Below, piece by piece: positions 3,659-59,148 of a stretch of DNA of 64,000 bases. Under the pieces are notes generated by a model. The model searched no databases and was not told where the DNA came from. It saw only the letters and a list, made by a program, of their open reading frames with translations. The translations under genes were made by a program, and so were the position numbers. The stretch is taken from NCBI GenBank assembly GCA_030524675.1, contig JAUNGE010000004.1, positions 29,369-93,368 on the forward strand. Reading direction: 5' to 3'. Source of the stretch: a bacterium (GTDB lineage Bacteria; Bacillota; Clostridia; Lachnospirales; Lachnospiraceae). Position 1 is the first letter of the stretch, and each line of letters opens with the position of its first letter.

Positions 3659-3749
3659 CCGCCATGACATGCAAAGTGGAGGCTACTGACTGCGAACAGG
3701 TCAATAACCCCCACCCCATACACCTATCAGTTACTTACTTTTGTATCAA

Positions 3750-4010
3750 GATGTTGGGGTCAAAAGGTATTTTGACCCCTTTGATACCGGATTGCTCCGC
3801 ACTGTGTGCTCCCGCAAGGTCTACGCTCCGCTCCGGTCGGCGCCAAGCAGGCGTCACTGGCGCCTGGCGCCCTAAAAACATTCATAATTCGCTCATTTTT
3901 CTTTGAAAAATGGCTACTTATTCATGTTTTTGGCGGGTCCCAAAGTCAGAAATCCTCTTGAAAGCAAGCTTTCATCAGATTTCTGACCTTTTGACCCTGG
4001 TATCATATCA
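3750..4010. repeat. MITE-like structured intergenic repeat, copy A (261 bp, carries a 55-nt GC-rich insert at 3818-3872)
   Basis: Aligns end to end with 6543-6751. Left end GATGTTGGGGTCAAAAGGTATTTTGACCCC; right end CTGACCTTTTGACCCTGGTATCATATCA. Confidence 0.85.
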
Positions 4011-4011
4011 A

Positions 4012-6039
4012 TTAGTCAGCAAAATAGCAGCACTCAATATGCGCAATACCAAGACCACGGAACTCATCACAGTATACAGAAGTCTCTGGGAAGTTCTTAA
4101 AGTTGTCTTTCACTGCAATCAGAGTCGTCGGAGCTGCCATGTAGCCCAGCACCCAGGTATTCTCTTTGTGCAGGTCTAACATCTGCTGTGCAATTTCCAT
4201 CTGTTTGTCAGAGTCAACCTCAACCTTTAACTGGTCGTACAGGTTGCACAGTTCCAGAAGTCCTCCCTCCGGAGCAACACCTTCAGCGCCGCGGGATGCA
4301 TACCAGTTGCCAACTTGGCTGTACCATGCAGCGTAGTTTCTAACTGGAACCAATGTATCTGGTCTCAAAATGATGCTGATAGTCTCTGCCGGAACAACCG
4401 GTCCGATAACTGCATCAAAATCGTTGCTCGTTGTCATGTTGTCCATAAGCTCACGGCTGACTGGCTTGTATGTACACTTAATGCCGATTGCATCGTAGTA
4501 CTTCATCAGAAGCTCTGCGGACTCGTCAGAACCGGACTCTGTGTTTGTGGAAAGATTCAGAACAAAATCTTTGCCGTTTGCAAAATCCCAGTAGCCATCA
4601 CTGCCTTTTACCATGCCGCAGCCCTCAATCAGAGTCTGTGCAGCTGCCGGATCATACTCGGTCCACTTTGCAGCCCATTCTGCGTCGTATCCCATCGTTC
4701 CCTCAGCTGGAGCTGCCTGTGCGCCATCCTGCCATCCGTCGGATAACAGAGATGCATATTCTTTTCTGTCAACAGCGATGGAAAGTGCCTGACGGAAATC
4801 GATATTGTTGAACAGTGCTCTGTAATCCTCATCTTTGTCTGTCAGGTTCAGATGTACCTGGCTTCTGATATCGGCCCACTGGCCGTTGGACCACTGAATC
4901 AGATGATAGCCGCCTTTTTCTGCGTTCTCCTGCAAAGTTGCGATATCTGCCCAGTTTGCACCGTCGTTGATGGTAACGGAACCTTCCAGAGTCTTTAACA
5001 GAGTCTGGGAAGCGTCAGAAATTCTAGTGATTTCCAGTTTATCAATATACGGAAGCTGTCTTCCCTCAGAGTCTACTTTCCAGTAGTACGGATTTCTCAC
5101 ATACTCGTAATAATCGCCGTCTACGTCGTTCTTTCCGGATTCTGTGGAGAGAACCCAAGGATTTAAGGTCGGGATACCAGATACGTTCCAGAAATAATAA
5201 CCCGTTTCCTTGCCCATAGCTGCCGCATCAGAGAATCCCATCTCTGTAGCTTTCTGCTTTGCTGCTTCCTCGCCGATAAACTCTGCCAAAATCTGCTCAT
5301 GATAATGCTTCGGTGCGAAACACCATTTTGCATTGATTGCCAGATTCTCGATGAAGGATGGTTTGGAATACTGGAATTTTACCTTAAATGTGGTGTCATC
5401 CACTTTCTCAAACTCAGCCTCTGTCACTTCGTCCGGATTCTCCGGATTTGCTACCTTAAAGCAATCCCATAAGGATTTACCAAATGTAGCCGGTTTACAC
5501 ATATGGTCATAGAAGAATACGCAATCCTCTGCGGTAAACGGAACCCCGTCAGACCATTTCATGCCTTTTCTCAGATAAATTGTGTACTCTGTAGCATCCT
5601 CATTTACATCATAGCCTTTTGCCACGTTTGGCTCTACTGTACCGTCTTCTTTGAAGCGGAACAGTCCCTGCTCGATTGGCTTACCGGTACTCCAGCCTGC
5701 TTTCTGGAATGCGAACTGGATGGAACCGCCGTACTGTCCAAGGCTCTCCATCTCCTCCACCATCGCATCTCCGTCTGTCGGAATACGCTCTTCCAGCGCC
5801 GGAAGGGTTCCTGCTGCTACCTGCTCGGCAAGCATCGGTGCTTCCTTCTGGCTGGTATCCACAGCTGTGTTCTCAGCTGCCGCTGTCGTTGTCTCTGCAG
5901 CTGCTGTGGAGCCTGCCTCTGTCTGTGCCGCTGTCGTAGCCGAAGCTGCTGTCGTGGCAGTGCTTCCACCGCCGCCGCACCCAACCAGGGACATCGCCAT
6001 AACGGCTGCACATGCGAGTGCTAATCCTCTTTTTCTCAT
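4012..6039 (-). CDS. ABC transporter substrate-binding lipoprotein, peptide/nickel (family 5) type
   Basis: 675-aa ORF with lipoprotein signal MRKRGLALACAAVMAMSLVGC, an Ala/Thr-rich linker and a large SBP body. Heads the opp-like operon. Confidence 0.85.
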   Translation of the reverse strand: MRKRGLALACAAVMAMSLVGCGGGGSTATTAASATTAAQTEAGSTAAAETTTAAAENTAVDTSQKEAPMLAEQVAAGTLPALEERIPTDGDAMVEEMESLGQYGGSIQFAFQKAGWSTGKPIEQGLFRFKEDGTVEPNVAKGYDVNEDATEYTIYLRKGMKWSDGVPFTAEDCVFFYDHMCKPATFGKSLWDCFKVANPENPDEVTEAEFEKVDDTTFKVKFQYSKPSFIENLAINAKWCFAPKHYHEQILAEFIGEEAAKQKATEMGFSDAAAMGKETGYYFWNVSGIPTLNPWVLSTESGKNDVDGDYYEYVRNPYYWKVDSEGRQLPYIDKLEITRISDASQTLLKTLEGSVTINDGANWADIATLQENAEKGGYHLIQWSNGQWADIRSQVHLNLTDKDEDYRALFNNIDFRQALSIAVDRKEYASLLSDGWQDGAQAAPAEGTMGYDAEWAAKWTEYDPAAAQTLIEGCGMVKGSDGYWDFANGKDFVLNLSTNTESGSDESAELLMKYYDAIGIKCTYKPVSRELMDNMTTSNDFDAVIGPVVPAETISIILRPDTLVPVRNYAAWYSQVGNWYASRGAEGVAPEGGLLELCNLYDQLKVEVDSDKQMEIAQQMLDLHKENTWVLGYMAAPTTLIAVKDNFKNFPETSVYCDEFRGLGIAHIECCYFAD

Positions 6040-6490: not shown

Positions 6491-6530
6491 AAAAAAACAA
6501 GGCTGGACAAGCAGAAAACTGCTCCCAGCC
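6491..6530 (-). terminator. rho-independent terminator downstream of the GH42 gene and repeat copy B
   Basis: In the minus sense: GGCTGGGAGCAG-TTTT-CTGCTTGTCCAGCC followed by TTGTTTTTTT. Confidence 0.7.
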
Positions 6531-6542
6531 TCCCAATATTAT

Positions 6543-6751
6543 GATGTTGGGGTCAAAAGGTATTTTGACCCCTTTGATACCAGATTGCTCCGCACTGCGT
6601 GCTCTCACAATCTCAAAAACATTCATAATCCGCTCATTTTTCTTTGAAAAATGGCTACTTATTCATGTTTTTGGCGGGTCCCAAAGTCAAAAATCCTCTT
6701 GCAAGCAAGCTTGCATCGGATTTCTGACCTTTTGACCCTGGTATCATATCA
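6543..6751. repeat. MITE-like structured intergenic repeat, copy B (209 bp, reference copy)
   Basis: Imperfect terminal inverted repeats and four internal hairpins. Its right end overlaps the TGA stop of the GH42 gene (6749-6751). Confidence 0.85.
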
Positions 6752-8764
6752 TGAATTGTATCCCGATAAGATCAATTCTGCATCATACCCTTTTAGCATA
6801 AGCTCTTTCTCATAATAGTTCTCAGACAGTACGCCTTTTCCAGATTTTTCCAATGGAACACAGATGGCATGGGAAGTAGTATTTACATAAAAATACTGAT
6901 TTTGTGCAATCCGCCTCGCCTGAATTCCTTCAGGCAATACAAATTCCCTTTTAATCCCCAATTCATCCTCCACACGCGCTATCAGCCATGCCAGCATCGT
7001 TTGGTTCGTTTCGAGAGCAGTATAATAAGCGGTACCTTTTCCATACTGATTTCTGGAAACCGCACACATATCCTTATCCTTAAAAACAGCAAACTTCTCC
7101 GCTGTCGTAAGCACAATCTGCTCATAATACTCTACATCCACCAGAAACTCTTCGCCATCCTTGCCCACAGACAGCAGCTCGTGACAGTTTCCTCCCGTGT
7201 CAGACAGAATGGCAGTATCCGAATAAAATCCTTTCATATCTGTCCAATAAAAACCTGCCACACGAATTCCAAACACATCAGACAGGCCTCCAGGTTTCGG
7301 TGTCGAAAATACTTTTCCTGTTTCATCTGCTGTGCCGGAATAGCCTGTCATAATCACGGTTCCACCCTGTTCCACATAGCTGCGAATCGTTGCCGCAACT
7401 GCAGGCTCAATCATAATATGACCTGGAACGATTAATAAGCGATACTCTTTCTTTAAATGCCGCAAATCAACCATATTATATTCCTGATTGCTTTCATAAA
7501 ATACCTGGTGGACCTGTGATATTGCATCCGCATAGCGCTGCCGGAATTGAATCTTATGATATTGCGATACCCAGCCGCTTTCCTGATTGAATGCAACGGC
7601 AATTTCTGGAGTCGGAAGGTATGGAAAGGCATACTTCTGCAGCTTTTTAAAGTCTGCGGCGACCTGTACAAACGCACTGTAATTTGGAGTGGGAATCCCA
7701 TCGTGTCCAAGCATACCATGATAGTACTGCTCTTCTCCTCCCAGCATACTTCTCCATGTCCAGCCCAAAATCATCTGTCCTCTGTTTATGAGACTTAATA
7801 ATGCCTGCATACGGATAAATCCCTGAGGTGGACAGAATACACCGGCCCCTCCTGTCTGGAATTCCAAAAACCACATTGGTTTTCCCGTTTCTGCCAGCCG
7901 TTCCTGATTCACGATTTTACAATAGTGAAACTTTTCGTCCAATTCATATCCTGGATAAAAGCCAACTCCCGGATAGTCCACAAATTCATCGCATATTTTC
8001 AAATAATCAAACCCTAAGTTGTCTCTCCCTGAATAATGATTGGAAGAATGTGGAACCTTTGGCGCATTCTTACTGACAACCTCCTTCAACCGAATCAAGA
8101 AACGGCCAATCCCGTCTGAAAAAAAGCGCCGCATATCCAGCCAGGCTTCCGGTGCTCCAACTGCAACTTCATTTTCCTGAAGAACCACATCGTCAAAGGA
8201 GGTAAGTTGTCTGCTCCATCGCCTCGTTGCCCATGCCTCATTCAATGCCTCAATCGTGCCATACTTCTTTTTGAGCCAGTTTGCAAACCGATTTCTGGCA
8301 TACTCAGAATAAGACATCACTCCTGCACCCATCTCATTGCACAGTCCAAAAGCGAACAGCGCCGGATGATTCTTGTAGCGATTCACCAGTATCTCAGCAA
8401 ACCGCAGCGCATACTGCTGATATGCAGGGTCATCAACGTCCTCCATATATCGCCTTAGACTTGGCTGACTGTTTCCACTTTTTCCATGAATGTTACACCC
8501 AGGACATAATTTATGTACCCAGACCGGTGCCGGACGCATCGAGATATCCAGCACAACGCCAATGCCCGCCTCATAAAACAAATCCATAACCTCATCAAAC
8601 CATTCAAATGTATACACGCCCTCTTCCGGTTCGTAGCTATCCCAACACAGATGCCCCAACCGTACAGTTGTAAATCCTGCTTCTTTCATCAGTTCAATAT
8701 CTATTTTCCACCGCTTTGGTGTCCAATCATGGGGATGGTAATTTGTTCCTACATATAGTGCCAT
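6749..8764 (-). CDS. beta-galactosidase, glycoside hydrolase family 42
   Basis: 671 aa. N-terminal TIM-barrel pattern GTNYHPHDW...GFTTVRLG, acid/base region FGLCNEMG and nucleophile region WFLEFQTGG. Confidence 0.85.
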   Translation of the reverse strand: MALYVGTNYHPHDWTPKRWKIDIELMKEAGFTTVRLGHLCWDSYEPEEGVYTFEWFDEVMDLFYEAGIGVVLDISMRPAPVWVHKLCPGCNIHGKSGNSQPSLRRYMEDVDDPAYQQYALRFAEILVNRYKNHPALFAFGLCNEMGAGVMSYSEYARNRFANWLKKKYGTIEALNEAWATRRWSRQLTSFDDVVLQENEVAVGAPEAWLDMRRFFSDGIGRFLIRLKEVVSKNAPKVPHSSNHYSGRDNLGFDYLKICDEFVDYPGVGFYPGYELDEKFHYCKIVNQERLAETGKPMWFLEFQTGGAGVFCPPQGFIRMQALLSLINRGQMILGWTWRSMLGGEEQYYHGMLGHDGIPTPNYSAFVQVAADFKKLQKYAFPYLPTPEIAVAFNQESGWVSQYHKIQFRQRYADAISQVHQVFYESNQEYNMVDLRHLKKEYRLLIVPGHIMIEPAVAATIRSYVEQGGTVIMTGYSGTADETGKVFSTPKPGGLSDVFGIRVAGFYWTDMKGFYSDTAILSDTGGNCHELLSVGKDGEEFLVDVEYYEQIVLTTAEKFAVFKDKDMCAVSRNQYGKGTAYYTALETNQTMLAWLIARVEDELGIKREFVLPEGIQARRIAQNQYFYVNTTSHAICVPLEKSGKGVLSENYYEKELMLKGYDAELILSGYNS

Positions 8765-14678: not shown

Positions 14679-15596
14679 TTATTTACTAATTGTGATATGG
14701 GACGGTATATTCAAACTTACCAAATACGTAATGCCTGCCCCAAGCAGCATTACCATAATAAGTACAATGGAAAGATTGGCAATCTTTTTTCCTGCCTGCC
14801 AAAGGACCCTGTTTTCATAACTAATCATATAAGTAAACCCATTGACATCTGAGGTTAATTGATTTGTCCGGATTCCATCCATCTGTTTATTTGTTGAAAA
14901 TACAAGCTTTCCTTCTGCATCCAGCACAGTTACTCCATAGCCATCATGATTCTCTGCCAAGTCACGCAAAGATTTCTCTGATATATTGACTATTACCAGA
15001 CATTTAGGTGTATCAGAGGGAACCGGCAACTCAAATGCCATAAAGATTCCCTCTGTATTGATTGTGGTACGCTCCAGACTTTTATCCTCGTTCTGCCTTA
15101 TGTTGTTTACCAGATAAGCAGTCTGCGTCTTATCTTTTTTTACCAGTTCCATGATTTCTTCCTGATTATCCGCTTCTGAAAAACGATACATGCCGCGGTT
15201 ACTTAAAACCCAGTCTGTATCAAAATTCACAAAAGTAAAACCGCTGATATTTCCTTCCAAATAAGAAGGGCCTTTCAGCTGATGGATAGCCTCAACCTGC
15301 ATACTGTAGTCAGAATAATTCATATCTCTTGTCATAATTGCAGTGATTGGCCGAGATACAAATGTCTCCATATAACTGTACTTTATATTTTCCAGAACCT
15401 TCTCTACCTGCCCCTGCACTTCTCGTGCTTTTGCCAAAGCCATGAAATCCATTTGTTCTCTCATTTCTCCAATCGTTACATAGTACGAAAACATACTGAG
15501 TAAAATAATTGGAAAAGCCGCTGCCAGGAACATACCAATTAGCAATTTTGATTTAAAAGGTATATTTGACCACCTGTCTTTTATCGGTAATTTCAT
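14679..15596 (-). CDS. membrane sensor fragment (TM - extracytoplasmic cache-like domain - TM); N-terminal part of the split regulator
   Basis: 305 aa. TM1 is LLIGMFLAAAFPIILLSMFSYYV and TM2 is LSIVLIMVMLLGAGITYLVSL. The ORF stops 10 codons after TM2, 10 nt before the AraC ORF begins. Confidence 0.7.
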   Translation of the reverse strand: MKLPIKDRWSNIPFKSKLLIGMFLAAAFPIILLSMFSYYVTIGEMREQMDFMALAKAREVQGQVEKVLENIKYSYMETFVSRPITAIMTRDMNYSDYSMQVEAIHQLKGPSYLEGNISGFTFVNFDTDWVLSNRGMYRFSEADNQEEIMELVKKDKTQTAYLVNNIRQNEDKSLERTTINTEGIFMAFELPVPSDTPKCLVIVNISEKSLRDLAENHDGYGVTVLDAEGKLVFSTNKQMDGIRTNQLTSDVNGFTYMISYENRVLWQAGKKIANLSIVLIMVMLLGAGITYLVSLNIPSHITISK

Positions 15597-19542: not shown

Positions 19543-22500
19543 TCACTGGATACGTTCTTTTCTTTTCAGATAAATAGTGGGCAGCAGCACCGCTGTCTCA
19601 TGTTGGTCTTTTTCCCCCTTCCACGCGACAACAAAGCGGACTTCTGCGGCATATGGTTCATATCCGTTTTTCTCAAGCCTCTCCAGATTCGCATTGCAGG
19701 CCCTGGATAACTTTGCTGCCGGCTGCACACGCCCTGGCTGTAGGTTTTCTGGCTGCCGCCTTTCCGACTGCGGAGTGGTTTCTGCCATCAGATACCCGTT
19801 TTTCAAAGACAGCGGATGACCGCTGTGCAATTTGAAAATCAGCTCTTTCTTCCCTTTAAAAAAGTCCAGCACCACATCCCTGTGCGTCAGCTGCAGCGCA
19901 ATCTCTTCCGGCGGTGCATAGGAGCACGTATCTTCCACTTTCTCCACACCAGGAACCTTTAGAAAATCAAACAAAGTTCCATTATAATGAATATACAGTG
20001 CATGTTTTGCTCTTGTCATGCCCACATACAGTTTCCTCCTGTCCTCATCCCGCTGCACCGATACCTGATTCAGCATCATATACACGGTGTCAAACTCACG
20101 CCCTTTTGCCTTGTGGATGGTCGAGACATACATACAGTCCTTTCTGTCCGAATAAAAGTCTTCAAATTTCGACTCTCTGATAAACTCCTCCAGGTCACTC
20201 CTATATTTTGCCGGATAAATCTTCTCAAAATCAGTCAGCATGTTCATGCAGTTTTCGAGGCAGGTGCTGTCGGCATACACTGTGCTCAACCGGTTCTTTG
20301 CGGTCTGCCACAGCAAATTCGAAATCACAGGGGAAGTCAGCCTTTTGTCAATGATGGTGAGAAAGAACCGGATTTCCACCAAATTATAAAGTGAGAATCC
20401 ATCCATGGACTGAATCAGCTTTGCCCGAATTCCCTTCTGAAGCAGACCACCCAGAATGCAGAGCGCCTCATCGTTCGTGTTTGTCAAAATACAGGCTTTT
20501 CCGCCCTCATAGGTGCGCACCACCTGCGCAATCACTGGTTCTTCCAGATGCATCCCACTGTGATGGACCAGCTGCACGATGCCGTCTTCTTTCTGCACCG
20601 CTATAGCCTGGTTTGTCTTCATGCGGTTTCTGAGAGTCTTTGCAAACACATTGGAGAACGCGATGATATTGGCCTTACTTCTGTAATTTTCGTTCATCTC
20701 ATAGAGGGTGGCGCCGTACTCTGTCACAAACGACTTCAAATATCTGGAGTCTGAGCCGCGGAATTCATAGATATTCTGGTCATCATCCCCGACCGCAATC
20801 ACTCGCATCTCCTCATTTCGCTGCATCAGGGCCTCAATCAGTGCAAACTCGTTCTCATCCATGTCCTGCGCTTCGTCAATCACCAGAACACTCTTGGAAA
20901 TCCTGCCTGGCTCCACCTCGCCGTTTCGAATCAGCTCGGTCGCGTTTTTGACGACATCCTCTACACCCTCCAGGCTTCCGATTTTTCCCAGAAGGTCAAA
21001 ACAGTAGGAATGAAATGTCTTGATATCCACAAATCCGGCGGCATTTCCAATCAGAGCGAGCAGGCGCTTTTTGAACTCCGTCGCAGCCGCGCGCGAAAAT
21101 GTGACCATCAGAAGTTGGTCGTGCTTCACATCCTCGAGCAGAAGCAGGGATGCCAGTTTATGGACAAGCACGCGGGTTTTTCCGCTCCCTGGCCCTGCTG
21201 CCACCACAATATATTTTGACTGTGCATCATGGATGATACCAGACTGCACCTCGGACAACTCACAGAACAGCTTTTTATATTTTTCCGGTGTGATATTCCG
21301 GTCAATCTCCTTCGCGCGCTCTCCCTTAAAATACCTGGAAATAAATTTTTTAAAATCCATCTGAAAATAGTCCTGCACAAACTGCAGAGCCGCATCGTAG
21401 TCGCGCACCATCAAGTTCGCATACTCTCCCACAATGTGAATCTGGCGAATTTTCTGCCTGTAAAACTCATCCAGCATCCGGTAATCATCCACCTTGTAGC
21501 GGATTTTGTTGTCAAACACTTTTCGTTTGATTTCCATTGCATTGTACAGAACCAGAAAACCGCCCTCCAACCGCATGGCACCGATTTTGGAGAGATACAG
21601 CAGTGCGTCCTCCATGTCGGCCAGAGTCACTGGTGCCGTCCCTACATCCAGCCTCGGGGTATCTCTGTACTCCTGATACAGTCCCAACAGGGAAAACTGC
21701 ACCAGAACTTCTTCCGTATCGCCCGTGCGGGGTATGGTGCGTCTCGCTTTCTCAAAGAGATTTTCCACAATAAAATGACAGATATCGATTCTCCGGTAAA
21801 ATTTCTCCAGCATTTTTTCAGGCTCTAAGGCAGGCGATGTCTGTATGTACTGCTGGGCGCTGTTCTCCTGCTTAAAAATATAATTCTTTATTGTCAGATA
21901 ATACAGAATCGTGCGGATATTTTTCACGCTCGAGGATGATACGCCCGCCTGAATCGCCTCCCCGTTCAGCTCCTTTAAGTGCAGCTCGCAGCCTTCCTTT
22001 CCAATCCGCGAGAAAACAAACTGCTCCAAGTGAGCGAACTTGTCCAGAACCTGTGCTGTTTTATTCTCGGAATCGCTGCGCAGGATATAGGCTGACATAT
22101 CCCTGGAATCCGCCAGCAGACCGTCCTCACGCATCCGGTTCACTGCCTCAATCACTTCCTCCTTCGTCAATCCGAGCGTGTCTGCCAGATAGTCGATGCG
22201 CGACTCTGCTTCCTCATTTCCCGCTTTCGCAATGCTGCGGCTGGAAATCAGCGATTTTATGATGCGTCTGGCATTCTGCCTCTCGCTGTCAGAGGTAAAC
22301 AGCGGCGACATGTCAATGCGACAGCCCGCCTCCTCCATATTTTTCGCGAGAATGCTGGTCGCGTAGACTCTGGGAACATTATTTCCGCGCGTGATGTATC
22401 CTGCTGTCTCCAGCGCCGCGATGGCAGTCTTCACTCTCGTCTCGATATCCACGCCCGTGTCATCCCAGCCAGCCTGTCTGGCAATTTCTAACGGGGAGCA

Positions 22501-24438
22501 GCAGATACGGGGACGTTGTTTTGTCAGGTCTTTTATCGCCTTCCAGACCTGCTGAATTTCACTCATGCTCAGTTTGGTCTGATTCAGCAGAATAAAATGC
22601 TTGTCGAGGTCGCTGTCATTGAACAAAACATAGCAGTCCGCCTGCAGAGACGGATCGCGCCCTGCTCTCCCTGCCTCCTGCACGTAGTTTTCCAGGGAGT
22701 CCGAGATGTCATAGTGAACCACCAGGCGGACGTCCTTCTTGTCAACGCCCATACCAAAGGCGGAAGTTGCCACAATGACCTGTATTTCATTGCGGATAAA
22801 CGCCTCCTGATTGGCAATTTTGTCTTTGGCATCCATCTTTCCATAGAAGGGTTTCGCCGTAAATCCGTCATTTGTCAGCTTCTCCGCGAGTGCTTTCGTG
22901 CGCTTCGTCCTAGAAACGTACACAATCGCAGGGCAGTTTTTCTGCTCAATCAGACTGCGCAGGGCAATGTATTTCTCCTCCTCCGTTTCCTTGTACAGCA
23001 CAGTATAATGCAGGTTTTCTCTCGCTGCCGAGGAAGTAAACAGCTCCAGGTCCAGATCCAGTTTTTTCTTAAAATAGTCACAGATATCGGTGATAACTTT
23101 CTGTTTTGCCGTTGCGGTAAAGCAGGAGACAGAAACCGGTGTTTCGTCCTGCTTTTTTTCCTGGAGTTTCCGTATAAAATCTCCGATATACAGGTAGTCC
23201 ACGCGAAAATCCTGTCCCCAGGCCGAAAAGCAGTGTGCCTCATCGATGACAAAACGCACAATATTCCGAGACAGCAGCATTTTTTCGACCGTTTTTGAGC
23301 GCAGCTGTTCCGGCGAAATATACAGAAGACTGGCAGAGCCATTCTCCACACGCCGATAGGCATCGGCGCGCTCAATCGGACTCAAAAGCCCATTCACAGT
23401 CACAGCATCCACAATGCCGATTCGATTCAGATTGTCCACCTGGTCTTTCATTAACGACTGCAGCGGCGAAATCACGACTGTCAGGCCATGGCAGGCATGT
23501 CCCGCCATCAGAGCGGGCAGCTGAAATGTGATGGATTTGCCGCCTCCTGTCGGAAACACCGCGAGAAGTGACTTTCCATCCACGGCGGCCTGCGCTGCCT
23601 GTTCCTGCAGCGGTTCTCCCTGATAGGTGCGGAAATTGTCATAGCCAAAATACTGTTTCAGGCCCTTATGGACATCGAGCTGACTGTCACAGTAGGGACA
23701 GCCCTCTTTGCAGGGAGTATTGCGCAGCACCTTCATCACATTTTCAATCCTTGGATAATTCTTCAGAAGCCATGGCGGTGTGATGGAGTGAGCATCTCCG
23801 GTTCCGATGAGTGACAGCGTGTAGGCGAGCTCGACCGGATACTGCTTTATCAGCGCGCCAATGTCGGCATTCGTACACAGCATCCCATCGTACTCTTTCA
23901 GAATGAGCGACAGCGTGTCAAAGACATAGGGCCGAAAATCCACGTAGGCAAAAAAGTCTCTGAACTCCTCATGTGCATGCAGAAGACTGTAAAAAATCTG
24001 CTGTATTTTAAATGGCAGCGCGCTGAACACATTCACTTCATCATAGAACAAATCCTCCGCCTTCTTTGCATCGTTGACCGGATTATTCAACTCCTCCACC
24101 TGCAGCTTGTCGTCTTTCAAAAGTGCGTGATAGGGCTTTCTCGGAAATAAAAGAGGCGACCAGTACAAAGTGTCAATCACCCGCATGCGGTCTGCTTTGC
24201 TTGTATCTAAGTGCATATCAAAGTTTCTATCAAAACTCATATGAGGCATCAGATATTTCAAGTCATGGTGAATCACGTTATGTCCGCACAAGAACTGCGA
24301 TCCGGCAAGGAAAGCAGAAAAGTCGGATACTTTTGGAGAGTGAAATACTACACCGTCACTTCTGACTGCCCCTATGTCATATATTTTCTTGTCCTCCGCA
24401 CCAATCTCACTGTCAATAAAGATAATCGTTTTCCTCAT
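19543..24438 (-). CDS. three-domain fusion protein: DEDD-type 3'-5' exonuclease + RecQ-family helicase + UvrD/PcrA-type helicase (1631 aa)
   Basis: Start moved to MRKTIIFIDSE (ATG 24438) after AAGGAGGGG. Exonuclease motifs: IIFIDSEI, GHNVIHHDLKYL. RecQ motifs: FPTGGGKS, FVIDEAHCFSAWGQDFRVDY, QEAGRAGRD. UvrD motifs: AAGPGSGKT, VLVIDEAQDMD, VGDDDQNIYEFRGS, TIHKAKGREFD, LYVGMTRAKHAL. Confidence 0.85.
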   Translation of the reverse strand: MRKTIIFIDSEIGAEDKKIYDIGAVRSDGVVFHSPKVSDFSAFLAGSQFLCGHNVIHHDLKYLMPHMSFDRNFDMHLDTSKADRMRVIDTLYWSPLLFPRKPYHALLKDDKLQVEELNNPVNDAKKAEDLFYDEVNVFSALPFKIQQIFYSLLHAHEEFRDFFAYVDFRPYVFDTLSLILKEYDGMLCTNADIGALIKQYPVELAYTLSLIGTGDAHSITPPWLLKNYPRIENVMKVLRNTPCKEGCPYCDSQLDVHKGLKQYFGYDNFRTYQGEPLQEQAAQAAVDGKSLLAVFPTGGGKSITFQLPALMAGHACHGLTVVISPLQSLMKDQVDNLNRIGIVDAVTVNGLLSPIERADAYRRVENGSASLLYISPEQLRSKTVEKMLLSRNIVRFVIDEAHCFSAWGQDFRVDYLYIGDFIRKLQEKKQDETPVSVSCFTATAKQKVITDICDYFKKKLDLDLELFTSSAARENLHYTVLYKETEEEKYIALRSLIEQKNCPAIVYVSRTKRTKALAEKLTNDGFTAKPFYGKMDAKDKIANQEAFIRNEIQVIVATSAFGMGVDKKDVRLVVHYDISDSLENYVQEAGRAGRDPSLQADCYVLFNDSDLDKHFILLNQTKLSMSEIQQVWKAIKDLTKQRPRICCSPLEIARQAGWDDTGVDIETRVKTAIAALETAGYITRGNNVPRVYATSILAKNMEEAGCRIDMSPLFTSDSERQNARRIIKSLISSRSIAKAGNEEAESRIDYLADTLGLTKEEVIEAVNRMREDGLLADSRDMSAYILRSDSENKTAQVLDKFAHLEQFVFSRIGKEGCELHLKELNGEAIQAGVSSSSVKNIRTILYYLTIKNYIFKQENSAQQYIQTSPALEPEKMLEKFYRRIDICHFIVENLFEKARRTIPRTGDTEEVLVQFSLLGLYQEYRDTPRLDVGTAPVTLADMEDALLYLSKIGAMRLEGGFLVLYNAMEIKRKVFDNKIRYKVDDYRMLDEFYRQKIRQIHIVGEYANLMVRDYDAALQFVQDYFQMDFKKFISRYFKGERAKEIDRNITPEKYKKLFCELSEVQSGIIHDAQSKYIVVAAGPGSGKTRVLVHKLASLLLLEDVKHDQLLMVTFSRAAATEFKKRLLALIGNAAGFVDIKTFHSYCFDLLGKIGSLEGVEDVVKNATELIRNGEVEPGRISKSVLVIDEAQDMDENEFALIEALMQRNEEMRVIAVGDDDQNIYEFRGSDSRYLKSFVTEYGATLYEMNENYRSKANIIAFSNVFAKTLRNRMKTNQAIAVQKEDGIVQLVHHSGMHLEEPVIAQVVRTYEGGKACILTNTNDEALCILGGLLQKGIRAKLIQSMDGFSLYNLVEIRFFLTIIDKRLTSPVISNLLWQTAKNRLSTVYADSTCLENCMNMLTDFEKIYPAKYRSDLEEFIRESKFEDFYSDRKDCMYVSTIHKAKGREFDTVYMMLNQVSVQRDEDRRKLYVGMTRAKHALYIHYNGTLFDFLKVPGVEKVEDTCSYAPPEEIALQLTHRDVVLDFFKGKKELIFKLHSGHPLSLKNGYLMAETTPQSERRQPENLQPGRVQPAAKLSRACNANLERLEKNGYEPYAAEVRFVVAWKGEKDQHETAVLLPTIYLKRKERIQ

Positions 24439-24499
24439 CCGAATCCCCTCCTTATTTCTTCTTATGGTATTTTGCTGCTTTTGAATATGGAATATCTCC

Positions 24500-24528
24500 A
24501 TTGTATGGGAACCTTTTAGAACAATCAA
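24500..24528 (-). promoter_or_regulatory. candidate sigma-A promoter of the helicase gene
   Basis: In the minus sense: TTGATT, 17 nt, TACAAT, about 60 nt upstream of the ATG. Confidence 0.4.
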
Positions 24529-24590: not shown

Positions 24591-24788
24591 AAAATCATTC
24601 ATAATCCGCTCGCTTCGCCCATTCCATGTTCCAACGTCACCGCGCTCTCGCTCAATGAAGAACACAGCAGACACTAGGCTCGAAAATACCCACTCTGTGA
24701 ACTTTTTCACTAAGCTCGTAGAAAACCTCGCTAAGTGTTCAATGCTTCGCCAAGCGCTGGTGTTCTTCAATGGAATTCCATTTGGAGG
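24591..24788. repeat. mosaic repeat: a 21-nt core shared with the MITE (24591-24611) joined to a copy of the long-hairpin element (24629-24788)
   Basis: AAAATCATTCATAATCCGCTC matches the MITE interior AAAAACATTCATAATCCGCTC. The remainder aligns with the reverse complement of 29366-29527 apart from a 38-nt internal duplication. Confidence 0.7.
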
Positions 24789-29061: not shown

Positions 29062-29134
29062 TTTTTCCTCCGACACACCTCTCTATCATACTACGCCAAG
29101 CTGGTTTTTGTCTATCTTTTCTTTCTATACAGAT

Positions 29135-29343
29135 GATGTTGAGGTCAAATATAAAATTTGACCTTTGATATCACGAATTGCTCCGTGCTTCGCACTCACG
29201 CAATTCTAAAACACGCCAAATCCGCTCATTTTTCTACGAAAAATGGCTACTTTTTGGTGTTTTGGCGGGTCAACTGGACAAAAATCCTCCTGCAAGCAAG
29301 CTTGCATCGGATTTTATGTCTATTTGACCCTGATATCTATACA
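29135..29343. repeat. MITE-like structured intergenic repeat, copy C (divergent, about 209 bp)
   Basis: Collinear with copy B, with many substitutions that preserve the hairpins (for example GAATTGC...GCAATTC and GTGC-TTC-GCAC). Confidence 0.8.
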
Positions 29344-29365
29344 ACATTCTGTGCACAAACCGGTT

Positions 29366-29527
29366 GGGCCGCACAAGCCAGATGCAGTTCCAAACGGCAG
29401 CCCATTGGAAAACGCCAGCGCTTAGTGAGAAGCCTCACGAAGTGAGGGTTCGAGCTTAGCGTCTGCTGCGTTTTTCATTGGAGCGAGAGCGTGGTGCCGT
29501 TGGAATCCTGCTCTGGCAAAGCGGCCC
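29366..29527. repeat. long-hairpin element (about 160-bp imperfect palindrome)
   Basis: GGGCCGC...GCCAGATGCAG-TTCCAAACGGCA...CCATTGGAAAACGC pairs with GCGTTTTTCATTGG...TGCCGTTGGAA-TCCTGCTCTGGC...GCGGCCC. Homologous copy at 24629-24788. Confidence 0.75.
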
Positions 29528-29610
29528 ATAAATACACCAGCCCGCAAGCACACTAAGCTGTAGCACACTGGCCTTCAGACACATCGGCCTGTAGCATACC
29601 AGCCTGCGTT

Positions 29611-41542: not shown

Positions 41543-42283
41543 TTAGTACAGAACCTTGCCCAAGAACTCTTTCGTTCTCGGATTCTGCGGATGTCCGAAA
41601 ATATCCTCTGGACTTCCCTTCTCTGCGATGATACCGCCATCCATAAAGAACACTCTGTCGGATACCTCGCGGGCAAATCCCATCTCATGTGTCACAATGA
41701 CTGTCGTCATTCCCTCTTTTACCAGGTTTTTGATAACATTCAGCACCTCGCCTACCATCTCAGGGTCCAGAGCGGAGGTCGGCTCGTCAAACAGCATGAC
41801 TTCTGGTTCCATTGCCAGCGCACGCACAATCGCGAGACGCTGTTTCTGACCGCCCGAAAGGCGCTTTGGATACTCATCAATTTTGTCCAACAGTCCGACG
41901 CGGTTCAGCAGCTCTCTCGCCATTTTTTCTGCCTCTTCCTTCGACTTCTTTCCGAGAAGCACCGGCGCCATCGTGATGTTCTCGCCGACTGTCATATGCG
42001 GGAACACATTAAAATGCTGGAACACCATGCCCATTTTCTGGCGGTGGACGTTGATATCCACACTCTTGTCTGTGATATCAATTCCCTCAAAATAAATTTT
42101 TCCCTCATCCGGAACTTCCAGAAGATTCAGACAGCGCAGAAACGTACTCTTTCCGCCGCCGCTCGGCCCGATGATAGAGACTACCTCACCTTTTGTGATA
42201 TGTTCGCTGACCCCTTTCAGCACATGAAGGGAACCAAATTTTTTGTGCAGATTTTCCACCCGCAAAACTTCATTGCTACTCAC
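41543..42283 (-). CDS. polar amino-acid ABC transporter ATP-binding protein (GlnQ-like)
   Basis: 246 aa with [24 protein letters not shown] and [11 protein letters not shown]. Confidence 0.9.
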
Positions 42284-42956
42284 CGGCGCTCATCCTCCTT
42301 TCCAGAAGCAGTACACATTTTGACAGTGTAAAGGTCACAATTAAATAAATAATACCTACAATAATAAGCGGCTCGATTACCAGGTACAGCGCACCGGAAA
42401 TCGTCTTGTACTGTGTCATCAGCTCTCCGACAAAGAATGTAGATGCCAGAGAAGTCTCCTTAATCATGGTGACAAACTCATTGCAGAGCGCCGGAAGGAT
42501 GTTTCGCACAGCCTGCGGCAAAACCACATGAATCATGGTCTGACGGCTGTTTAAACCAAGGCAGCGCGCCGCCTCTGTCTGACCCTTGTCCACCGCCTGA
42601 ATTCCCGCACGGATTACCTCAGATACATACGCCGCAGAGTTCAGACAGAGCGCCACAGCGATACAGGTGTATTTGCTCAGTTCCATGAACGGCAGCAAAT
42701 CCGGCAGCAGAAAATAAAAGAAATACAACTGAAGCAAAATCGGAGTACCGCGGATGATCTCAACATAAATAGCCGCAATCACATTAAGTGGCTTTACATT
42801 TCCGATTTTAAATTTACTCATTCTGAGAAGGGATATAAAAAATCCTAAAATACATCCCATCAGAACCGTAATCAAACTCAGCAGCAAGGTATGGCCCAAA
42901 CCTACCAGAAACAGATTCCAGTATTTTTCCCATACACGAATCATATTTTCAATCAT
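42276..42956 (-). CDS. polar amino-acid ABC transporter permease
   Basis: 226-aa polytopic ORF with [22 protein letters not shown]. Overlaps the ATPase gene start. Confidence 0.9.
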
Positions 42957-56998: not shown

Positions 56999-57910
56999 TT
57001 ACTTCACAAAACTAAACTTCAGTTTTCCACTCTTCTTTCCATTCGGTTCCACGAAAAGCAGTCCAGACTCCTTCTGATATCCCTTTTGATACAGGTTAAA
57101 ACAGTCTGTAGAACAAGTCTGGTTTTCCACGCAGAAGAAATGATTTTTCGGAGTGAACACAACCACATGCGTGAAGTCCTTTGTCGCGTCAATCTCCACC
57201 GTAAACGCATCATAATACAGGCGAATGGGTTCCTTCTCATGATAATCTGTATAAACATGGTCCAAATCGAGAGATTCCACGGAAACCGGTTTTCTCAACT
57301 CCACACCCGTCTCCTCCATCGGAATCAGTTTTCCGGTAGGAATCTTTTCCTCCGTCATCTCCATGTAGGAATCCACCGGAACAGAAATCTTTACATCCTG
57401 TCCATTTTTTGTGAAAAACGGATGAATGGCAATGCCATACGGAAGTTCTTTTTCACTCTCCTTATTTTCCACCTCATATTCCCAGTTTAACACATTTTTG
57501 CGGATGGAAACGCGGATGCGTAAAACACTGTGAAATGGAAACATGAAAAATTCTTCCTGGCTCTCATCCCAGCGCAGGCTGCCCTCCAAAACCGCCTCAT
57601 TTTCCAGACAGAGCTCCTTCGTCACAGCAAACGGCAGGCGGCGCACCACGCCGTGCATTCTAGCGTCATATGCATCCTCGCCGATGTGGATTTTCAGACC
57701 ATCGCTGCGGTTCGGAGTTGGATAGAGAACCGGAACCCCATATGTTACTCCATTCTCAAATCGCGTATCGTCCCAAGCGATAATCTGCTGCCCCTCAAAC
57801 GCAATGCCATATACATTCATGCCATCCTCCGGACACACCCACGCCTCCATCTGCTCTCCAATCAATTTATAAATCTCTTTTCCCTTAAACTCACTTTTCT
57901 CGATTTTCAT
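56999..57910 (-). CDS. aldose 1-epimerase family protein
   Basis: Start moved to MKIEKSEFKGKEIYKL (ATG 57910) after AAAGGAGA. The upstream part of the 408-aa ORF runs through a repeat and the neighbouring gene. Confidence 0.75.
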   Translation of the reverse strand: MKIEKSEFKGKEIYKLIGEQMEAWVCPEDGMNVYGIAFEGQQIIAWDDTRFENGVTYGVPVLYPTPNRSDGLKIHIGEDAYDARMHGVVRRLPFAVTKELCLENEAVLEGSLRWDESQEEFFMFPFHSVLRIRVSIRKNVLNWEYEVENKESEKELPYGIAIHPFFTKNGQDVKISVPVDSYMEMTEEKIPTGKLIPMEETGVELRKPVSVESLDLDHVYTDYHEKEPIRLYYDAFTVEIDATKDFTHVVVFTPKNHFFCVENQTCSTDCFNLYQKGYQKESGLLFVEPNGKKSGKLKFSFVK

Positions 57911-59148
57911 GTATATTGTCTCCTTTGCAGTTTCCTTTCTTTCCATGATGTTGGGGTCAAAAATCCTCTTGCAAGCAAGCTTGCATCGGATTTCTGACCT
58001 TTTGACCCTGGTATCACCATATATTTCAGAATCGTCGCAAATGCCACCCGATACCCCATCTTCAGAGAATCTTTCCACACATACTCCTCTCGCGTGTGCG
58101 CACCATCTCCATAATATGTCCCATAGCATACGCTTGGGATACCAAGGGAAAGCGGGATATTGCAGTCTGTGGAACCAGAGTGGGCTCCCATCTGCTTTCC
58201 CGTGACTGCTTCCAAAAGCTGACATGCCTGCACGCTCAATGCCTCCTGTTTCTCTTCATCCACGCCGTTTCCGCAGGGACGCTCTCCCACCAGGATGACT
58301 TCAAGCTCCTCTCCCGCCGCTCTGTGAGCCTCAAAAATTCGCTCGAACTCCTCTTCCATCGCCTGCATGCCGCGGATATCGTCGGACCGATATTCACACA
58401 GCATATGTGCTTCCTGCGCGATTGTGTTGACCGAAGTTCCGCCCGCAATCGTTCCGACATTGTAGGTGGTCTTTCCATACGGCGGAACCGTGATTTTATA
58501 AATATCCGAAATCACGCCAGCCAGCAATGCAATCGCGTTGGTATTTCCAAAACGTGCATAGGAATGGCCGCCCTGCGCCCTCATCACAACCTCAAACCGT
58601 CTGGAACCGACTGCCCGATTTACGATTCCATTCATCGTTCCGTCCAGGCTGATGAACTGTTTGATTCTGCCCTTATAGTCCTCACAGATTTTCCTGGAAC
58701 CTTTCAGGTTTCCGAGTCCTTCCTCGCAGGAATTGCACACCAGCAAAAGTCCCCAGTCCTGTGACACCAGATGATTCTTCGCAATATATTTCGCACACAG
58801 CAAAAGCGCTGTCAGATTTGCCGTATCATCCCCAACGCCTGGGCAGTAAAGCTTTCCATCTTCCTCTTTCATCGGAAGCTCTGCCATATCCGGAAATACC
58901 ACATCCATATGTGCCATCACAACGGCAATCGGCTTCTCTTTCGTCACTCCGACCGGATACACCACATTTAAGACACTGTCTGTGTAGACGCCTTCTGCAC
59001 CGCACTGTACCAGAAAATCCCTGCAAAATTCCATGCGCTTTTCCTCTTTGCCCGACGGCGCCGGTATCTTTGCCAATGTCTTTAAGAGTTCATATGCCTC
59101 CTCCTCATGCTCTCTGATATATTGTTCCACCTGCTGTTCCAGTATCAT
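57907..59148 (-). CDS. M20-family metallopeptidase (ArgE/DapE/PepT-like) with a repeat-encoded C-terminal tail
   Basis: 413 aa with VMAHMDVV, PGVGDDTANL and CEEGLGNL. The last 36 codons (after ...ATILKYM) are read from repeat copy D and the former spacer. The stop overlaps the next gene's ATG (ATGA). Confidence 0.8.
   Translation of the reverse strand: MILEQQVEQYIREHEEEAYELLKTLAKIPAPSGKEEKRMEFCRDFLVQCGAEGVYTDSVLNVVYPVGVTKEKPIAVVMAHMDVVFPDMAELPMKEEDGKLYCPGVGDDTANLTALLLCAKYIAKNHLVSQDWGLLLVCNSCEEGLGNLKGSRKICEDYKGRIKQFISLDGTMNGIVNRAVGSRRFEVVMRAQGGHSYARFGNTNAIALLAGVISDIYKITVPPYGKTTYNVGTIAGGTSVNTIAQEAHMLCEYRSDDIRGMQAMEEEFERIFEAHRAAGEELEVILVGERPCGNGVDEEKQEALSVQACQLLEAVTGKQMGAHSGSTDCNIPLSLGIPSVCYGTYYGDGAHTREEYVWKDSLKMGYRVAFATILKYMVIPGSKGQKSDASLLARGFLTPTSWKERKLQRRQYT
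57947..58016. repeat. MITE-like repeat, copy D (70 bp, internal deletion keeping both ends)
   Basis: GATGTTGGGGTCAAAA is joined directly to ATCCTCTTGCAAGCAAGCTTGCATCGGATTTCTGACCTTTTGACCCTGGTATCA. The junction falls in the direct repeat GTCAAAA present at both sites of the full element. Confidence 0.8.

What the first reader, a model, noticed from the sequence alone, without database searches (positions are those of the whole stretch)
6543..6751. Structured MITE-like repeat family of about 210 bp: four copies, one orientation, compensatory stem changes
Four copies of one element lie at 3750-4010, 6543-6751, 29135-29343 and 57947-58016 (the last internally deleted).

Ends and body:
- The ends are imperfect inverted repeats. 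The left end is ATGATGTTGGGGTCAAAAGG; the right end, read on the other strand, is TGATATGATACCAGGGTCAAAAGG.
- The body is nearly all hairpins: GGGGTCAAAA-GGTA-TTTTGACCCC at the left end, a two-tier hairpin at 6582-6613, CATTTTT-CTTTG-AAAAATG in the middle, and an imperfect stem of about 20 bp at 6686-6728.

The copies differ by substitutions that keep pairing:
- Outer stem: AGATTG/CAATCT in copy B, GAATTG/CAATTC in copy C.
- Inner stem: GCAC/GTGC in B, GTGC/GCAC in C.
- Right-end stem: TGCAAGC/GCTTGCA in B, TGAAAGC/GCTTTCA in A; and GTCA/TGAC in B, GACA/TGTC in C.

Location and orientation:
- All copies sit between genes or at gene 3' ends.
- All have the same orientation relative to the flanking minus-strand transcription.
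- Copy B lies between a stop codon and the intrinsic terminator at 6491-6530, so it should be transcribed as 3' UTR.

No transposase gene is in the window. Terminal inverted repeats plus subterminal hairpins fit either a non-autonomous transposon or a REP/BIME-like RNA element. I do not recognise it as a named family.
Basis: partly seen in the sequence, partly recalled or inferred. Interest (0 to 1): 0.72.

Follow-up and report, generated by a model that had tools for sequence, protein, structure and literature searches.

The report
Mobile mini-transposon encoding Clostridiales-1 RNA
The four repeats are copies of an already catalogued but unexplained gut-bacterial RNA motif (Rfam Clostridiales-1), and they behave as a small non-coding transposon, so an orphan "RNA gene" is really a mobile repeat.

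Summary

Three of them match Rfam RF01699, the Clostridiales-1 RNA, on the minus strand at 91-137 bits against a cut-off of 48. Weinberg et al. described this motif in 2010 and no function is known. The family is therefore not new.

What I found in no paper of the searchable library is that the motif is the body of a miniature inverted-repeat transposable element (MITE):
- It has 18-nt terminal inverted repeats, GATACCAGGGTCAAAAGG and GATGTTGGGGTCAAAAGG.
- It is flanked by a 7-bp, sometimes 8-bp, AT-rich target duplication with consensus ATWWTAT. Of 53 non-redundant full copies, 20 have a perfect 7/7 match, against 0.9 expected from permuted pairs.
- Tandem copies share one heptamer.
- Copy D has a clean empty site in a 95 %-identical relative. 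Copy C is absent in 94 % relatives.

The four-stem fold shows strong covariation. An extra 3' hairpin lies outside the Rfam model.

No transposase lies in the window or in about 2 Mb of related loci, so the partner enzyme is unknown. What the RNA does is also unknown. Orientation relative to host genes is only weakly biased.

The element is a member of a known family. Interest is moderate.

The parts
6543..6745 (-). Copy B, full element (203 nt), GATACC...AACATC on the minus strand
   Evidence: nhmmer and alignment. Fold -95.2 kcal/mol, z -11.9.
6575..6746 (-). Copy B, part matched by Rfam RF01699 Clostridiales-1 (P1-P4 four-stem core)
   Evidence: cmscan 136.9 bits against a cut-off of 48, E 2.6e-31, model positions 1-166 of 166.
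6543..6574 (-). Copy B, 3' terminal hairpin (GGGGUCAAAA-UACC-UUUUGACCCC) plus the 3' TIR. This part lies outside the Rfam model.
   Evidence: Helices 10-11 show changes on both sides across copies.
6728..6745 (-). Copy B, 5' terminal inverted repeat GATACCAGGGTCAAAAGG
6543..6560 (+). Copy B, 3' terminal inverted repeat, read inward on the + strand as GATGTTGGGGTCAAAAGG. It matches the 5' TIR at 14 of 18 positions.
6746..6752 (-). Copy B, target-site duplication, 5' copy ATGATAT. It contains the TGA stop codon of the GH42 gene (6749-6751).
6536..6542 (-). Copy B, target-site duplication, 3' copy ATAATAT (6 of 7 match)
6491..6530 (-). Intrinsic terminator of the GH42 transcript, downstream of copy B. 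It is host sequence, not part of the element.
   Evidence: Fold: hairpin followed by UUGUUUUUUU.
3750..4004 (-). Copy A, full element (255 nt) with an extra GC-rich hairpin at about 3815-3868. It lies between the SBP_bac_5 gene and the permease gene of an Opp-like operon.
   Evidence: cmscan 90.7 bits at 3782-4005. Sequence and alignment. Flanking genes.
4005..4011 (-). Copy A, TSD 5' copy TTGATAT, immediately after the TAA stop codon of the binding-protein gene (4012-4014)
3743..3749 (-). Copy A, TSD 3' copy TTGATAC (6 of 7 match)
29132..29337 (-). Copy C, full element. It has a 3-nt ATC duplication at its 3' end. It sits in the 534-nt spacer between the dihydroorotase-like gene and the HAD hydrolase gene.
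   Evidence: cmscan 111.5 bits at 29166-29338. Sequence. Absent in 94 % relatives.
29338..29344 (-). Copy C, TSD 5' copy (T)TGTATA
29125..29131 (-). Copy C, TSD 3' copy TGTATA(G). Homology with the element-free relatives resumes exactly here.
57947..58015 (-). Copy D, 69-nt deletion derivative (5' TIR + P2 hairpin + 3' TIR). It is read through as the C-terminal ~36 codons of the M20 peptidase ORF 57907-59148.
   Evidence: nhmmer E 4.7e-13 on model positions 1-60. Sequence. All 120 best homologues cover only 91 % of the ORF. Empty site in L123.

Best explanation
The repeats are copies of a miniature inverted-repeat transposable element (MITE) whose body is the Rfam motif Clostridiales-1 (RF01699).

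Shown:
- Each full copy is about 183-204 nt.
- It begins with GATACCAGGGTCAAAAGG and ends with the inverted CCTTTTGACCCCAACATC.
- It encodes no protein.
- It is flanked by a duplicated 7-bp (sometimes 8-bp) AT-rich target, consensus ATWWTAT. The target is often the heptamer that contains or abuts a stop codon.
- Copies are present or absent between closely related strains.
- Its single strand folds into a closing stem plus three hairpins, and in most subfamilies a 3' hairpin that sequesters the 3' repeat. These helices are kept by compensatory substitutions.

Inferred:
- The element is moved in trans by a transposase with a DDE-type active site that recognises the GGGTCAAAAGG-containing ends and makes 7-bp staggered cuts. 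This enzyme is encoded elsewhere in the genome or was lost.
- The element has no promoter of its own. It is transcribed by read-through from host genes: inside an operon for A, as 3' UTR before the native terminator for B, and fused to a coding 3' end for D.
- The compact, non-terminating fold is probably what selection preserves. A plausible reason is that it makes insertions in operons and UTRs harmless or mildly useful, for instance by blocking 3' exonucleases, as REP and ERIC elements do. This last step is the least supported.
For: Family identity:
- cmscan gives 136.9, 111.5 and 90.7 bits against a cut-off of 48.

Ends and target duplications:
- Junction alignments define the ends.
- Of 53 non-redundant full copies from genome, metagenome and viral loci, 20 have a perfect 7/7 duplication. 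Permuted pairing gives a mean of 0.9 and a maximum of 6 in 5000 trials.
- 26 copies match at 6/7 or better, against 4.9 expected. Seven more are perfect at 8/8.
- Shifting the register abolishes the signal.
- The heptamers differ between copies but match within a copy.
- Tandem copies share a single heptamer, as in L094, L029 and L105.

Presence and absence:
- Locus D: L123 (95 % aa identity) reads GGCTTAG-CTGGAA-GAAAAG with no element. L122 (99 %) and the window are occupied.
- Locus C: relatives at 94 % lack the element, and homology resumes exactly at the TGTATAG heptamer.
- Locus A: relatives whose permease is 97 % identical lack the element.

Multi-copy behaviour:
- Short-read contigs break at the repeat. 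At least 24 of the 80 listed metagenome contigs end within about 100 nt of a terminal repeat.

Structure:
- The Rfam strand folds more stably than its complement in 53 of 54 copies, by 11.4 kcal/mol on average (for copy B).

Transcription context:
- No promoter-like site lies upstream of the RNA 5' ends.
- A terminator follows copy B.
- There is no transposase in the window.
Against: - No autonomous partner was found. No inverted pair of terminal repeats encloses a transposase-like ORF in about 2 Mb of related loci, so the DDE mechanism is inferred from TIR plus TSD alone.
- About half of the full copies lack a good duplication. These may be old copies, or my boundaries may be imprecise.
- The short forms have no matching duplications, so there is no evidence that the ends alone suffice for mobility.
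- The RNA-level reading is weak. Between co-directional genes the orientation is only 28 sense to 12 antisense (p = 0.017).
- Stop-codon-proximal insertions occur equally in both orientations, 7 to 6.
- G-U pairs in sense folds (97) are not clearly more numerous than in antisense folds (74).
- Two of the three absence cases (A and C) have extra sequence differences at one junction.
Confidence: 0.8

Rival explanations
1. It is a family of genuine trans-acting small RNA genes, as Rfam types it ('Gene; sRNA'). The many copies arose by duplication, and the inverted ends and flanking repeats are incidental.
For: - The fold is strong and conserved, with covariation.
- The P4 internal loop (GGGAG / CGGAG) and the junction sequences are invariant across all 54 aligned copies.
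- The sense strand is more stable in 53 of 54 copies.
- Weinberg 2010 judged the motif a likely RNA and not cis-regulatory.
Against: - The structure starts at the second base of the element, so no promoter can travel with it. None is seen upstream.
- Copies lie inside an operon, in a 3' UTR and inside an ORF end.
- Matching heptamers flank the copies, the empty site is precise, and tandem copies share one heptamer.
- Duplication of an sRNA gene would not produce variable 7-bp flanking duplications.
Confidence: 0.1
2. It is a REP/BIME-like or IS200/IS605-derived palindromic element, moved as single-stranded DNA by a HUH (RAYT/TnpA-Y1) enzyme that recognises the hairpins.
For: - The element has hairpin-rich anatomy.
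- Covariation fits a single-stranded fold and does not clearly favour G-U over A-C.
- The modest orientation bias could track replication rather than transcription.
Against: - HUH-mobilised elements make no target duplication and have no terminal inverted repeats. Here both are present.
- The size is about 200 nt with four distinct helices, not 20-40-nt palindromes.
- No Y1/RAYT gene was seen in the window.
Confidence: 0.04
3. It is a mobile element whose RNA has been co-opted as a cis-acting mRNA module, acting as a 3'-end stabiliser or intercistronic insulator. Selection on host gene expression then explains the conserved fold and where copies survive.
For: - Copy A sits between the binding-protein gene and the permease gene of an ABC operon. 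This is the classical REP position in malE-malF (established knowledge).
- Copy B lies between a stop codon and a terminator.
- 19 of 66 copies lie within 7 nt of an upstream stop codon, against 8.1 % of available target sites.
- None of the sense-strand hairpins of copy B is followed by a U-tract (sequence), so it should not terminate transcription.
Against: - Stop-proximal copies are equally frequent in both orientations, 7 to 6. That points to target choice or tolerance, not an RNA-strand function.
- The overall orientation bias is modest.
- There are no expression data.
Confidence: 0.3

Closest known systems
Rfam RF01699, Clostridiales-1 RNA motif (Weinberg et al. 2010, Genome Biol 11:R31)
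   Same: Copies A, B and C match the full covariance model (positions 1-166 of 166) far above the gathering score. They share its four-stem architecture, its strand, and its taxonomic range (Lachnospiraceae and other Clostridia, human and animal gut).
   Different: - The Rfam model and the 2010 description cover only the P1-P4 core.
- They omit the 3' hairpin and 3' terminal repeat (about 32 nt).
- They do not mention inverted ends, target duplications or mobility.
- Copy D is too truncated to reach the threshold.
Bacterial MITEs transcribed within host mRNAs: Neisseria Correia elements and enterobacterial ERIC/IRU
   Same: They are small, non-coding and multi-copy. They have terminal inverted repeats and target duplication. 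They insert in intergenic and 3' regions and fold into stable RNA hairpins when co-transcribed. For several of them the autonomous partner is unknown or uncertain (own knowledge).
   Different: - There is no sequence relationship that I know of; I did not test this.
- Correia elements duplicate TA and are essentially one long palindrome.
- This element duplicates 7 bp of ATWWTAT.
- It has a multi-helix junction with local hairpins and invariant internal loops, not a simple left-right palindrome.
REP/BIME elements of Enterobacteria and Pseudomonas (RAYT-mobilised)
   Same: They are repeated, structured and intergenic. They often lie between a binding-protein gene and a permease gene or before terminators. 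They are thought to stabilise upstream mRNA (own knowledge).
   Different: REPs are 20-40-nt palindromes with a conserved GTAG head, no terminal inverted repeats and no target duplication. This element has both and is about 200 nt long.

Membership tests
Rfam RF01699 Clostridiales-1 | Covariance-model score at or above the curated gathering score (48 bits) over the full model | tested here: met
   B 136.9 bits, C 111.5 bits, A 90.7 bits, all over model positions 1-166 of 166 on the minus strand. D gives no hit at the gathering score; it retains only P2 and the ends.
Rfam RF01699 Clostridiales-1 | Four-stem structure (closing stem plus three hairpins) supported by covariation | tested here: met
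   The MFE fold equals the Rfam consensus structure. 56 of 72 pairs show changes on both sides, and 85.5 % of cells pair against 72.6 % in shuffles.
Rfam RF01699 Clostridiales-1 | Occurrence in Clostridiales and gut metagenomes | tested here: met
   The 118 genome loci are almost all Lachnospiraceae or other Clostridia. The 120 metagenome loci are largely from human gut.
MITE (non-autonomous DNA transposon) | Small size and no coding capacity | tested here: met
   Full copies are 182-204 nt, or 244-255 nt with the extra hairpin. Nearly all of the sequence is occupied by helices.
MITE (non-autonomous DNA transposon) | Terminal inverted repeats | tested here: met
   GATACCAGGGTCAAAAGG and GATGTTGGGGTCAAAAGG match at 14 of 18 positions. 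Subfamilies change both ends together, for example GGGACAAAAGG with GCGACAAAAGG.
MITE (non-autonomous DNA transposon) | Target-site duplication of fixed length that varies in sequence between copies | tested here: met
   20 of 53 copies are perfect at 7/7, against 0.9 expected. Seven more are perfect at 8/8. The register-shift control is negative.
MITE (non-autonomous DNA transposon) | Insertion polymorphism, with empty sites in relatives | tested here: met
   There is a clean empty site for D in L123. C is absent in L267 and L268 with a precise 3' junction. A is absent in L141-L146, but that spacer has diverged.
MITE (non-autonomous DNA transposon) | Cognate autonomous IS with the same ends | tested here: inconclusive
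   None is found in the window (Pfam) or in about 2 Mb of loci. Whole genomes and ISfinder could not be searched.
REP/BIME | Palindromic units of 20-40 nt, no TIR, no TSD, association with a RAYT gene | tested here: not met
   The unit is about 200 nt with TIRs and a 7-bp TSD. No Y1/RAYT domain is found in the window.
IS200/IS605-derived palindrome-associated elements (PATE) | Subterminal hairpins without TIR or TSD, inserted 3' of a fixed tetra- or pentanucleotide | tested here: not met
   TIR and TSD are present. The flanking heptamers vary between copies.

The most novel reading that the evidence does not exclude
The conserved four-stem RNA is not passive cargo but takes part in the element's own mobility or control. 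It could be a transposon-borne structured RNA that recruits or regulates a still unknown transposase or host factor through the invariant GGGAG/CGGAG internal loop of P4. That would make it an RNA-dependent variant of cut-and-paste transposition, spread through hundreds of gut Clostridia genomes.
Probability: 0.07. Interest if true: 0.8.

Novelty: already known. Interest (0 to 1): 0.4.

Why it matters
Clostridiales-1 has sat in Rfam since 2010 as an orphan "sRNA gene" that is very common in human-gut DNA. It is still counted as a regulatory RNA in microbiome studies; a 2026 preprint does so.

Showing that it is the body of a mobile repeat changes how hits should be read:
- Hits mark transposon load and strain-level insertion polymorphism. 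They do not mark a regulatory gene.
- The repeat explains assembly breaks in Lachnospiraceae MAGs.
- It gives a concrete handle for finding the responsible transposase: 18-nt ends and a 7-bp ATWWTAT target.

It also adds a Firmicute example to the small set of bacterial MITEs whose internal sequence is under structural selection. Why that structure is preserved remains open.

Tried and rejected
1. Plasmid search with copy B: no match. The phage collection gave only unannotated faecal contigs carrying copies or fragments.

2. Search for an autonomous partner: all negative.
- Orphan or widely spaced inverted terminal repeats in the loci.
- ORF clustering across loci for a recurrent transposase.
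- IMG/VR and metagenome scans with a degenerate TIR pattern.
- The candidate pairs L252, L255, L163, L212 and L189 enclose ordinary host genes or are two separate elements.

3. Idea that the element targets promoter -10 boxes, because the duplication resembles TATAAT: rejected. There is no -35 enrichment at 16-18 nt spacing upstream, compared with other spacings or with the opposite flank.

4. Idea of an outward hybrid promoter. A weak CTGACC-N17-TAWWAT is conserved on the antisense side of the 5' end. It scores only 9 of 12, which is common by chance, so I did not adopt it.

5. Idea that stop-codon proximity shows a sense-strand 3' UTR function: weakened. The proximity is real (p = 7e-7) but equal in both orientations.

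6. G-U versus A-C counts to fix the functional strand: not decisive.

7. Reconstructed empty sites searched against all fetched loci: only self-hits from tandem copies.

8. Naming the organism: the cluster look-up gave no names. The best named relatives are only 64-78 % identical.

9. Walking beyond the window edges: only short contigs were returned, with no transposase.

Full report
**Observation.**
- The repeat finder recovers the family, and a four-way alignment shows the copies in register.
- Read on the minus strand, the element runs from GATACC... to ...AACATC.
- In + strand coordinates the bodies are A 3750-4004, B 6543-6745, C 29132-29337 and D 57947-58015.
- Copy A carries an extra ~54-nt G+C-rich hairpin at about 3815-3868.
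- Copy D is a 69-nt derivative in which the left end is joined to the right-end stem across a short GTCAAAA repeat.

**It is a named family.**
- cmscan against Rfam 15 places B, C and A in RF01699, the Clostridiales-1 RNA. They score 136.9, 111.5 and 90.7 bits against a gathering score of 48. All three lie on the minus strand and cover the whole model.
- The motif comes from Weinberg et al. 2010. Their table rates it as a likely RNA that is neither cis-regulatory nor a switch.
[quoted passage not shown] It says nothing about inverted ends, flanking duplications or mobility.
- Full-text searches for the name and the accession found no later functional work. They found only catalogue-type mentions, including a 2026 preprint that treats the motif as a regulatory RNA.
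- The Rfam match ends at 6575. The element continues for another 32 nt, which hold a hairpin (GGGGUCAAAA-UACC-UUUUGACCCC) and the 3' end.

**Boundaries, inverted repeats and target duplication.**
Nearly all are Lachnospiraceae or other Clostridia.
- A metagenome scan and an IMG/VR scan with the terminal repeat gave 120 and 11 more loci.
- Aligning the best copies with their flanks shows that similarity stops sharply on both sides.
- The ends are 18-nt inverted repeats, GATACCAGGGTCAAAAGG and GATGTTGGGGTCAAAAGG. They match at 14 of 18 positions, and all four differences are transitions.
- Subfamilies change both ends together. GGGACAAAAGG at the 5' end goes with GCGACAAAAGG at the 3' end.
- Immediately outside the ends lie heptamers that differ between copies but match within a copy. 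Examples are ATATAAT, ATTATAT, ATGATAT, TGTATAG and TTTGTAT.
- Among 53 non-redundant full-length copies, 20 have a perfect 7/7 match. Re-pairing 5' and 3' flanks at random gives a mean of 0.9 and a maximum of 6 in 5000 trials.
- 26 copies match at 6/7 or better, against 4.9 expected. Seven further copies are perfect at 8/8.
- Shifting the register by one to four bases removes the signal.
- The target consensus is A-T-W-W-T-A-T.
- In the window, A has TTGATAT/TTGATAC, B has ATGATAT/ATAATAT and C has TGTATA on both sides.
- In several loci (L094, L029, L105) two elements are separated by exactly one heptamer. This is what a second insertion into the duplicated target would give.

**Presence and absence.**

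*Copy D*
- It lies at the end of an M20 peptidase gene.
- All 120 best homologues are 373-407 aa long and cover only 91 % of the 413-aa window ORF. The last ~36 codons are therefore element sequence read through in frame.
- The orthologous contig of a 95 %-identical relative (L123) has the gene's own stop codon followed by GCTGGAAGAAAAG and no element.
- A 99 %-identical relative (L122) has the native stop codon, then ATTGAAA, then the element.
- The window has lost about 11 nt at that junction, including the stop codon.

*Copy C*
- In 94 %-identical relatives (L267, L268) the spacer is 321 nt instead of 534 nt and has no element.
- Homology to the window resumes exactly at the TGTATAG heptamer on the 3' side.
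- The 5' side carries an additional ~65-nt difference.

*Copy A*
- In relatives whose permease is 97 % identical, the binding-protein-to-permease spacer is 173 nt and has no element.
- That spacer has diverged too much to count as a clean empty site.

*Assembly breaks*
- Short-read contigs of the window's own species, from three samples, break at copies A, B and C.
- At least 24 of the 80 listed metagenome contigs end within about 100 nt of a terminal repeat.

**Structure.**
- Copy B folds at -95.2 kcal/mol (z = -11.9) into the Rfam structure plus the 3' hairpin. Its complement folds at -75.9 kcal/mol.
- I used a MAFFT alignment of 54 distinct copies that was not fitted to any structure, with the structure taken from the cmscan alignment of copy B.
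- On it, 85.5 % of cells form standard pairs, against 72.6 % after shuffling partners (0/500 shuffles reach the observed value). Sliding partners by 1-3 columns gives 32-44 %.
- 56 of 72 pairs show changes on both sides. This includes the 3' hairpin, which lies outside the Rfam model.
- The inner stem of P4 alone occurs as CAC/GUG, UGC/GCA, CGC/GCG, UAC/GUA, CCC/GGG and CAU/AUG.
- The P4 internal loop (GGGAG opposite CGGAG) and parts of the junctions are invariant in all 54 copies.
- The Rfam strand folds more stably than its complement in 53 of 54 copies, by 11.4 kcal/mol on average.
- That gap is not explained by wobble pairs. There are 97 G-U pairs in sense folds and 74 in antisense folds. 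The functional strand is therefore likely but not proven.

**Context.**
- Copy A lies between the solute-binding-protein gene and the first permease gene of an Opp-like ABC operon. Its duplication starts right after the TAA stop codon.
- Copy B starts 2 nt after the TGA of a GH42 beta-galactosidase gene. The stop codon lies inside the duplicated heptamer. The gene's intrinsic terminator follows 13 nt after the element.
- No sigma-70-like promoter precedes any RNA 5' end. Because the closing stem starts at the second base of the element, no promoter can be carried along.
- Across loci, 19 of 66 elements with a same-strand upstream ORF have that ORF's stop codon inside or within 7 nt of the duplication. 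Only 8.1 % of available ATWWTAT sites downstream of ORFs lie that close (p = 7e-7).
- The same proximity is seen when the element is antisense to the gene, 7 to 6 among full copies. I read it as target choice plus tolerance, not as a strand-specific function.
- Taking one element per locus, the orientation between co-directional genes is 28 sense to 12 antisense (p = 0.017). Divergent (27) and convergent (10) spacers carry no orientation information.

**The missing enzyme.**
- Pfam scans of all window ORFs of 110 aa or more found transporters, glycosidases, regulators and metabolic enzymes but no transposase, integrase or HUH domain. Two ORFs had no hit.
- In about 2 Mb of fetched loci, no inverted pair of terminal repeats encloses a transposase-like ORF, and no protein family recurs next to the element.
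- The enzyme is therefore inferred from its footprint. Inverted ends and a fixed-length staggered duplication are the signature of transposases with a DDE-type active site (established knowledge).
- Serine or tyrosine recombinases and HUH enzymes do not produce variable 7-bp duplications.
- From my own knowledge of published IS-family tables, 7-8 bp is unusual. That narrows the candidates but does not identify one.

**Most likely mechanism and rivals.**
- I am confident (about 0.8) that this is a non-autonomous DNA transposon whose body is the Clostridiales-1 motif.
- I am much less sure why the fold is conserved.
- My preferred reading is that the element is transcribed passively. A compact fold that does not terminate transcription lets copies persist in operons and UTRs, possibly protecting upstream mRNA as REP and ERIC elements do.
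- The rival that it is a true sRNA gene family fails on the missing promoter, the duplications and the empty site.
- The rival that it is REP-like or IS200-like fails on the inverted repeats and duplications.
- A role of the RNA, or of the single-stranded DNA, in transposition itself cannot be excluded and would be the interesting outcome.

**Verdict.**
- The family has been known since 2010, so it is not a new kind of element.
- The contribution is the reinterpretation of an orphan Rfam motif as a mobile element with defined ends, a defined target and an extended 3' hairpin.
- Interest is moderate, 0.4.

Noticed in passing
window 29344-29610, and window 24629-24715: Next to copy C lies a second, unrelated structured repeat. 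It is a ~200-nt imperfect palindrome (RNA MFE -122 kcal/mol, z -4.6). An 88-nt piece recurs at 79.5 % identity in inverted orientation at 24629-24715. There is no Rfam hit at the gathering score. The 94 % relatives that lack copy C still have it.
   Followed up: partly
window 3815-3868; L098 5678-5922; L135 158-212: Copy A carries a ~54-nt G+C-rich extra hairpin between P3 and P4. Copies in two unrelated loci have a related insert at the same position, so this is a subfamily with a fifth stem, not a one-off insertion.
   Followed up: partly
L139 13586-13613 and L137 8292-8320 (IMG/VR contigs): A solo 5' end of the element (terminal repeat plus the start of P2) stops abruptly 22 nt upstream of a 528-aa large serine recombinase gene. 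An integrative element or prophage may have inserted into a copy of the repeat.
   Followed up: partly
L189 5937-5965: A 28-nt palindrome made only of two abutted terminal-repeat tips, GATGTCGGGG-TCAAAAG-CCCCCGACATC. It looks like a minimal remnant of the element.
   Followed up: no
window 57907-59148 (-): The M20/M25/M40 peptidase ORF has lost its native stop codon at the junction with copy D. It now ends with about 36 element-encoded residues, and its new TGA overlaps the ATG of the downstream aldose epimerase gene (56999-57910).
   Followed up: yes
L144 11001-18860: In one long-read assembly of the 97 % relative, the oppC-like permease gene is split by a ~7-kb insert that carries a 550-aa serine recombinase (Resolvase, Recombinase, Zn_ribbon_recom).
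   Followed up: no
window 19543-24528 (-): A 1661-aa ORF fuses a DEAD/Helicase_C module to a UvrD-type helicase module. Two window ORFs have no Pfam hit: 14679-15596 (-), 305 aa, and 41591-42331 (+), 246 aa. The second is probably spurious.
   Followed up: no
L009 and L025 (genome contigs): Two loci carrying the element are labelled Tidjanibacter massiliensis and Odoribacter splanchnicus (Bacteroidota) in 'cleanbin' assemblies. Every other host is a Clostridia member, so these look like binning contamination rather than true hosts.
   Followed up: no
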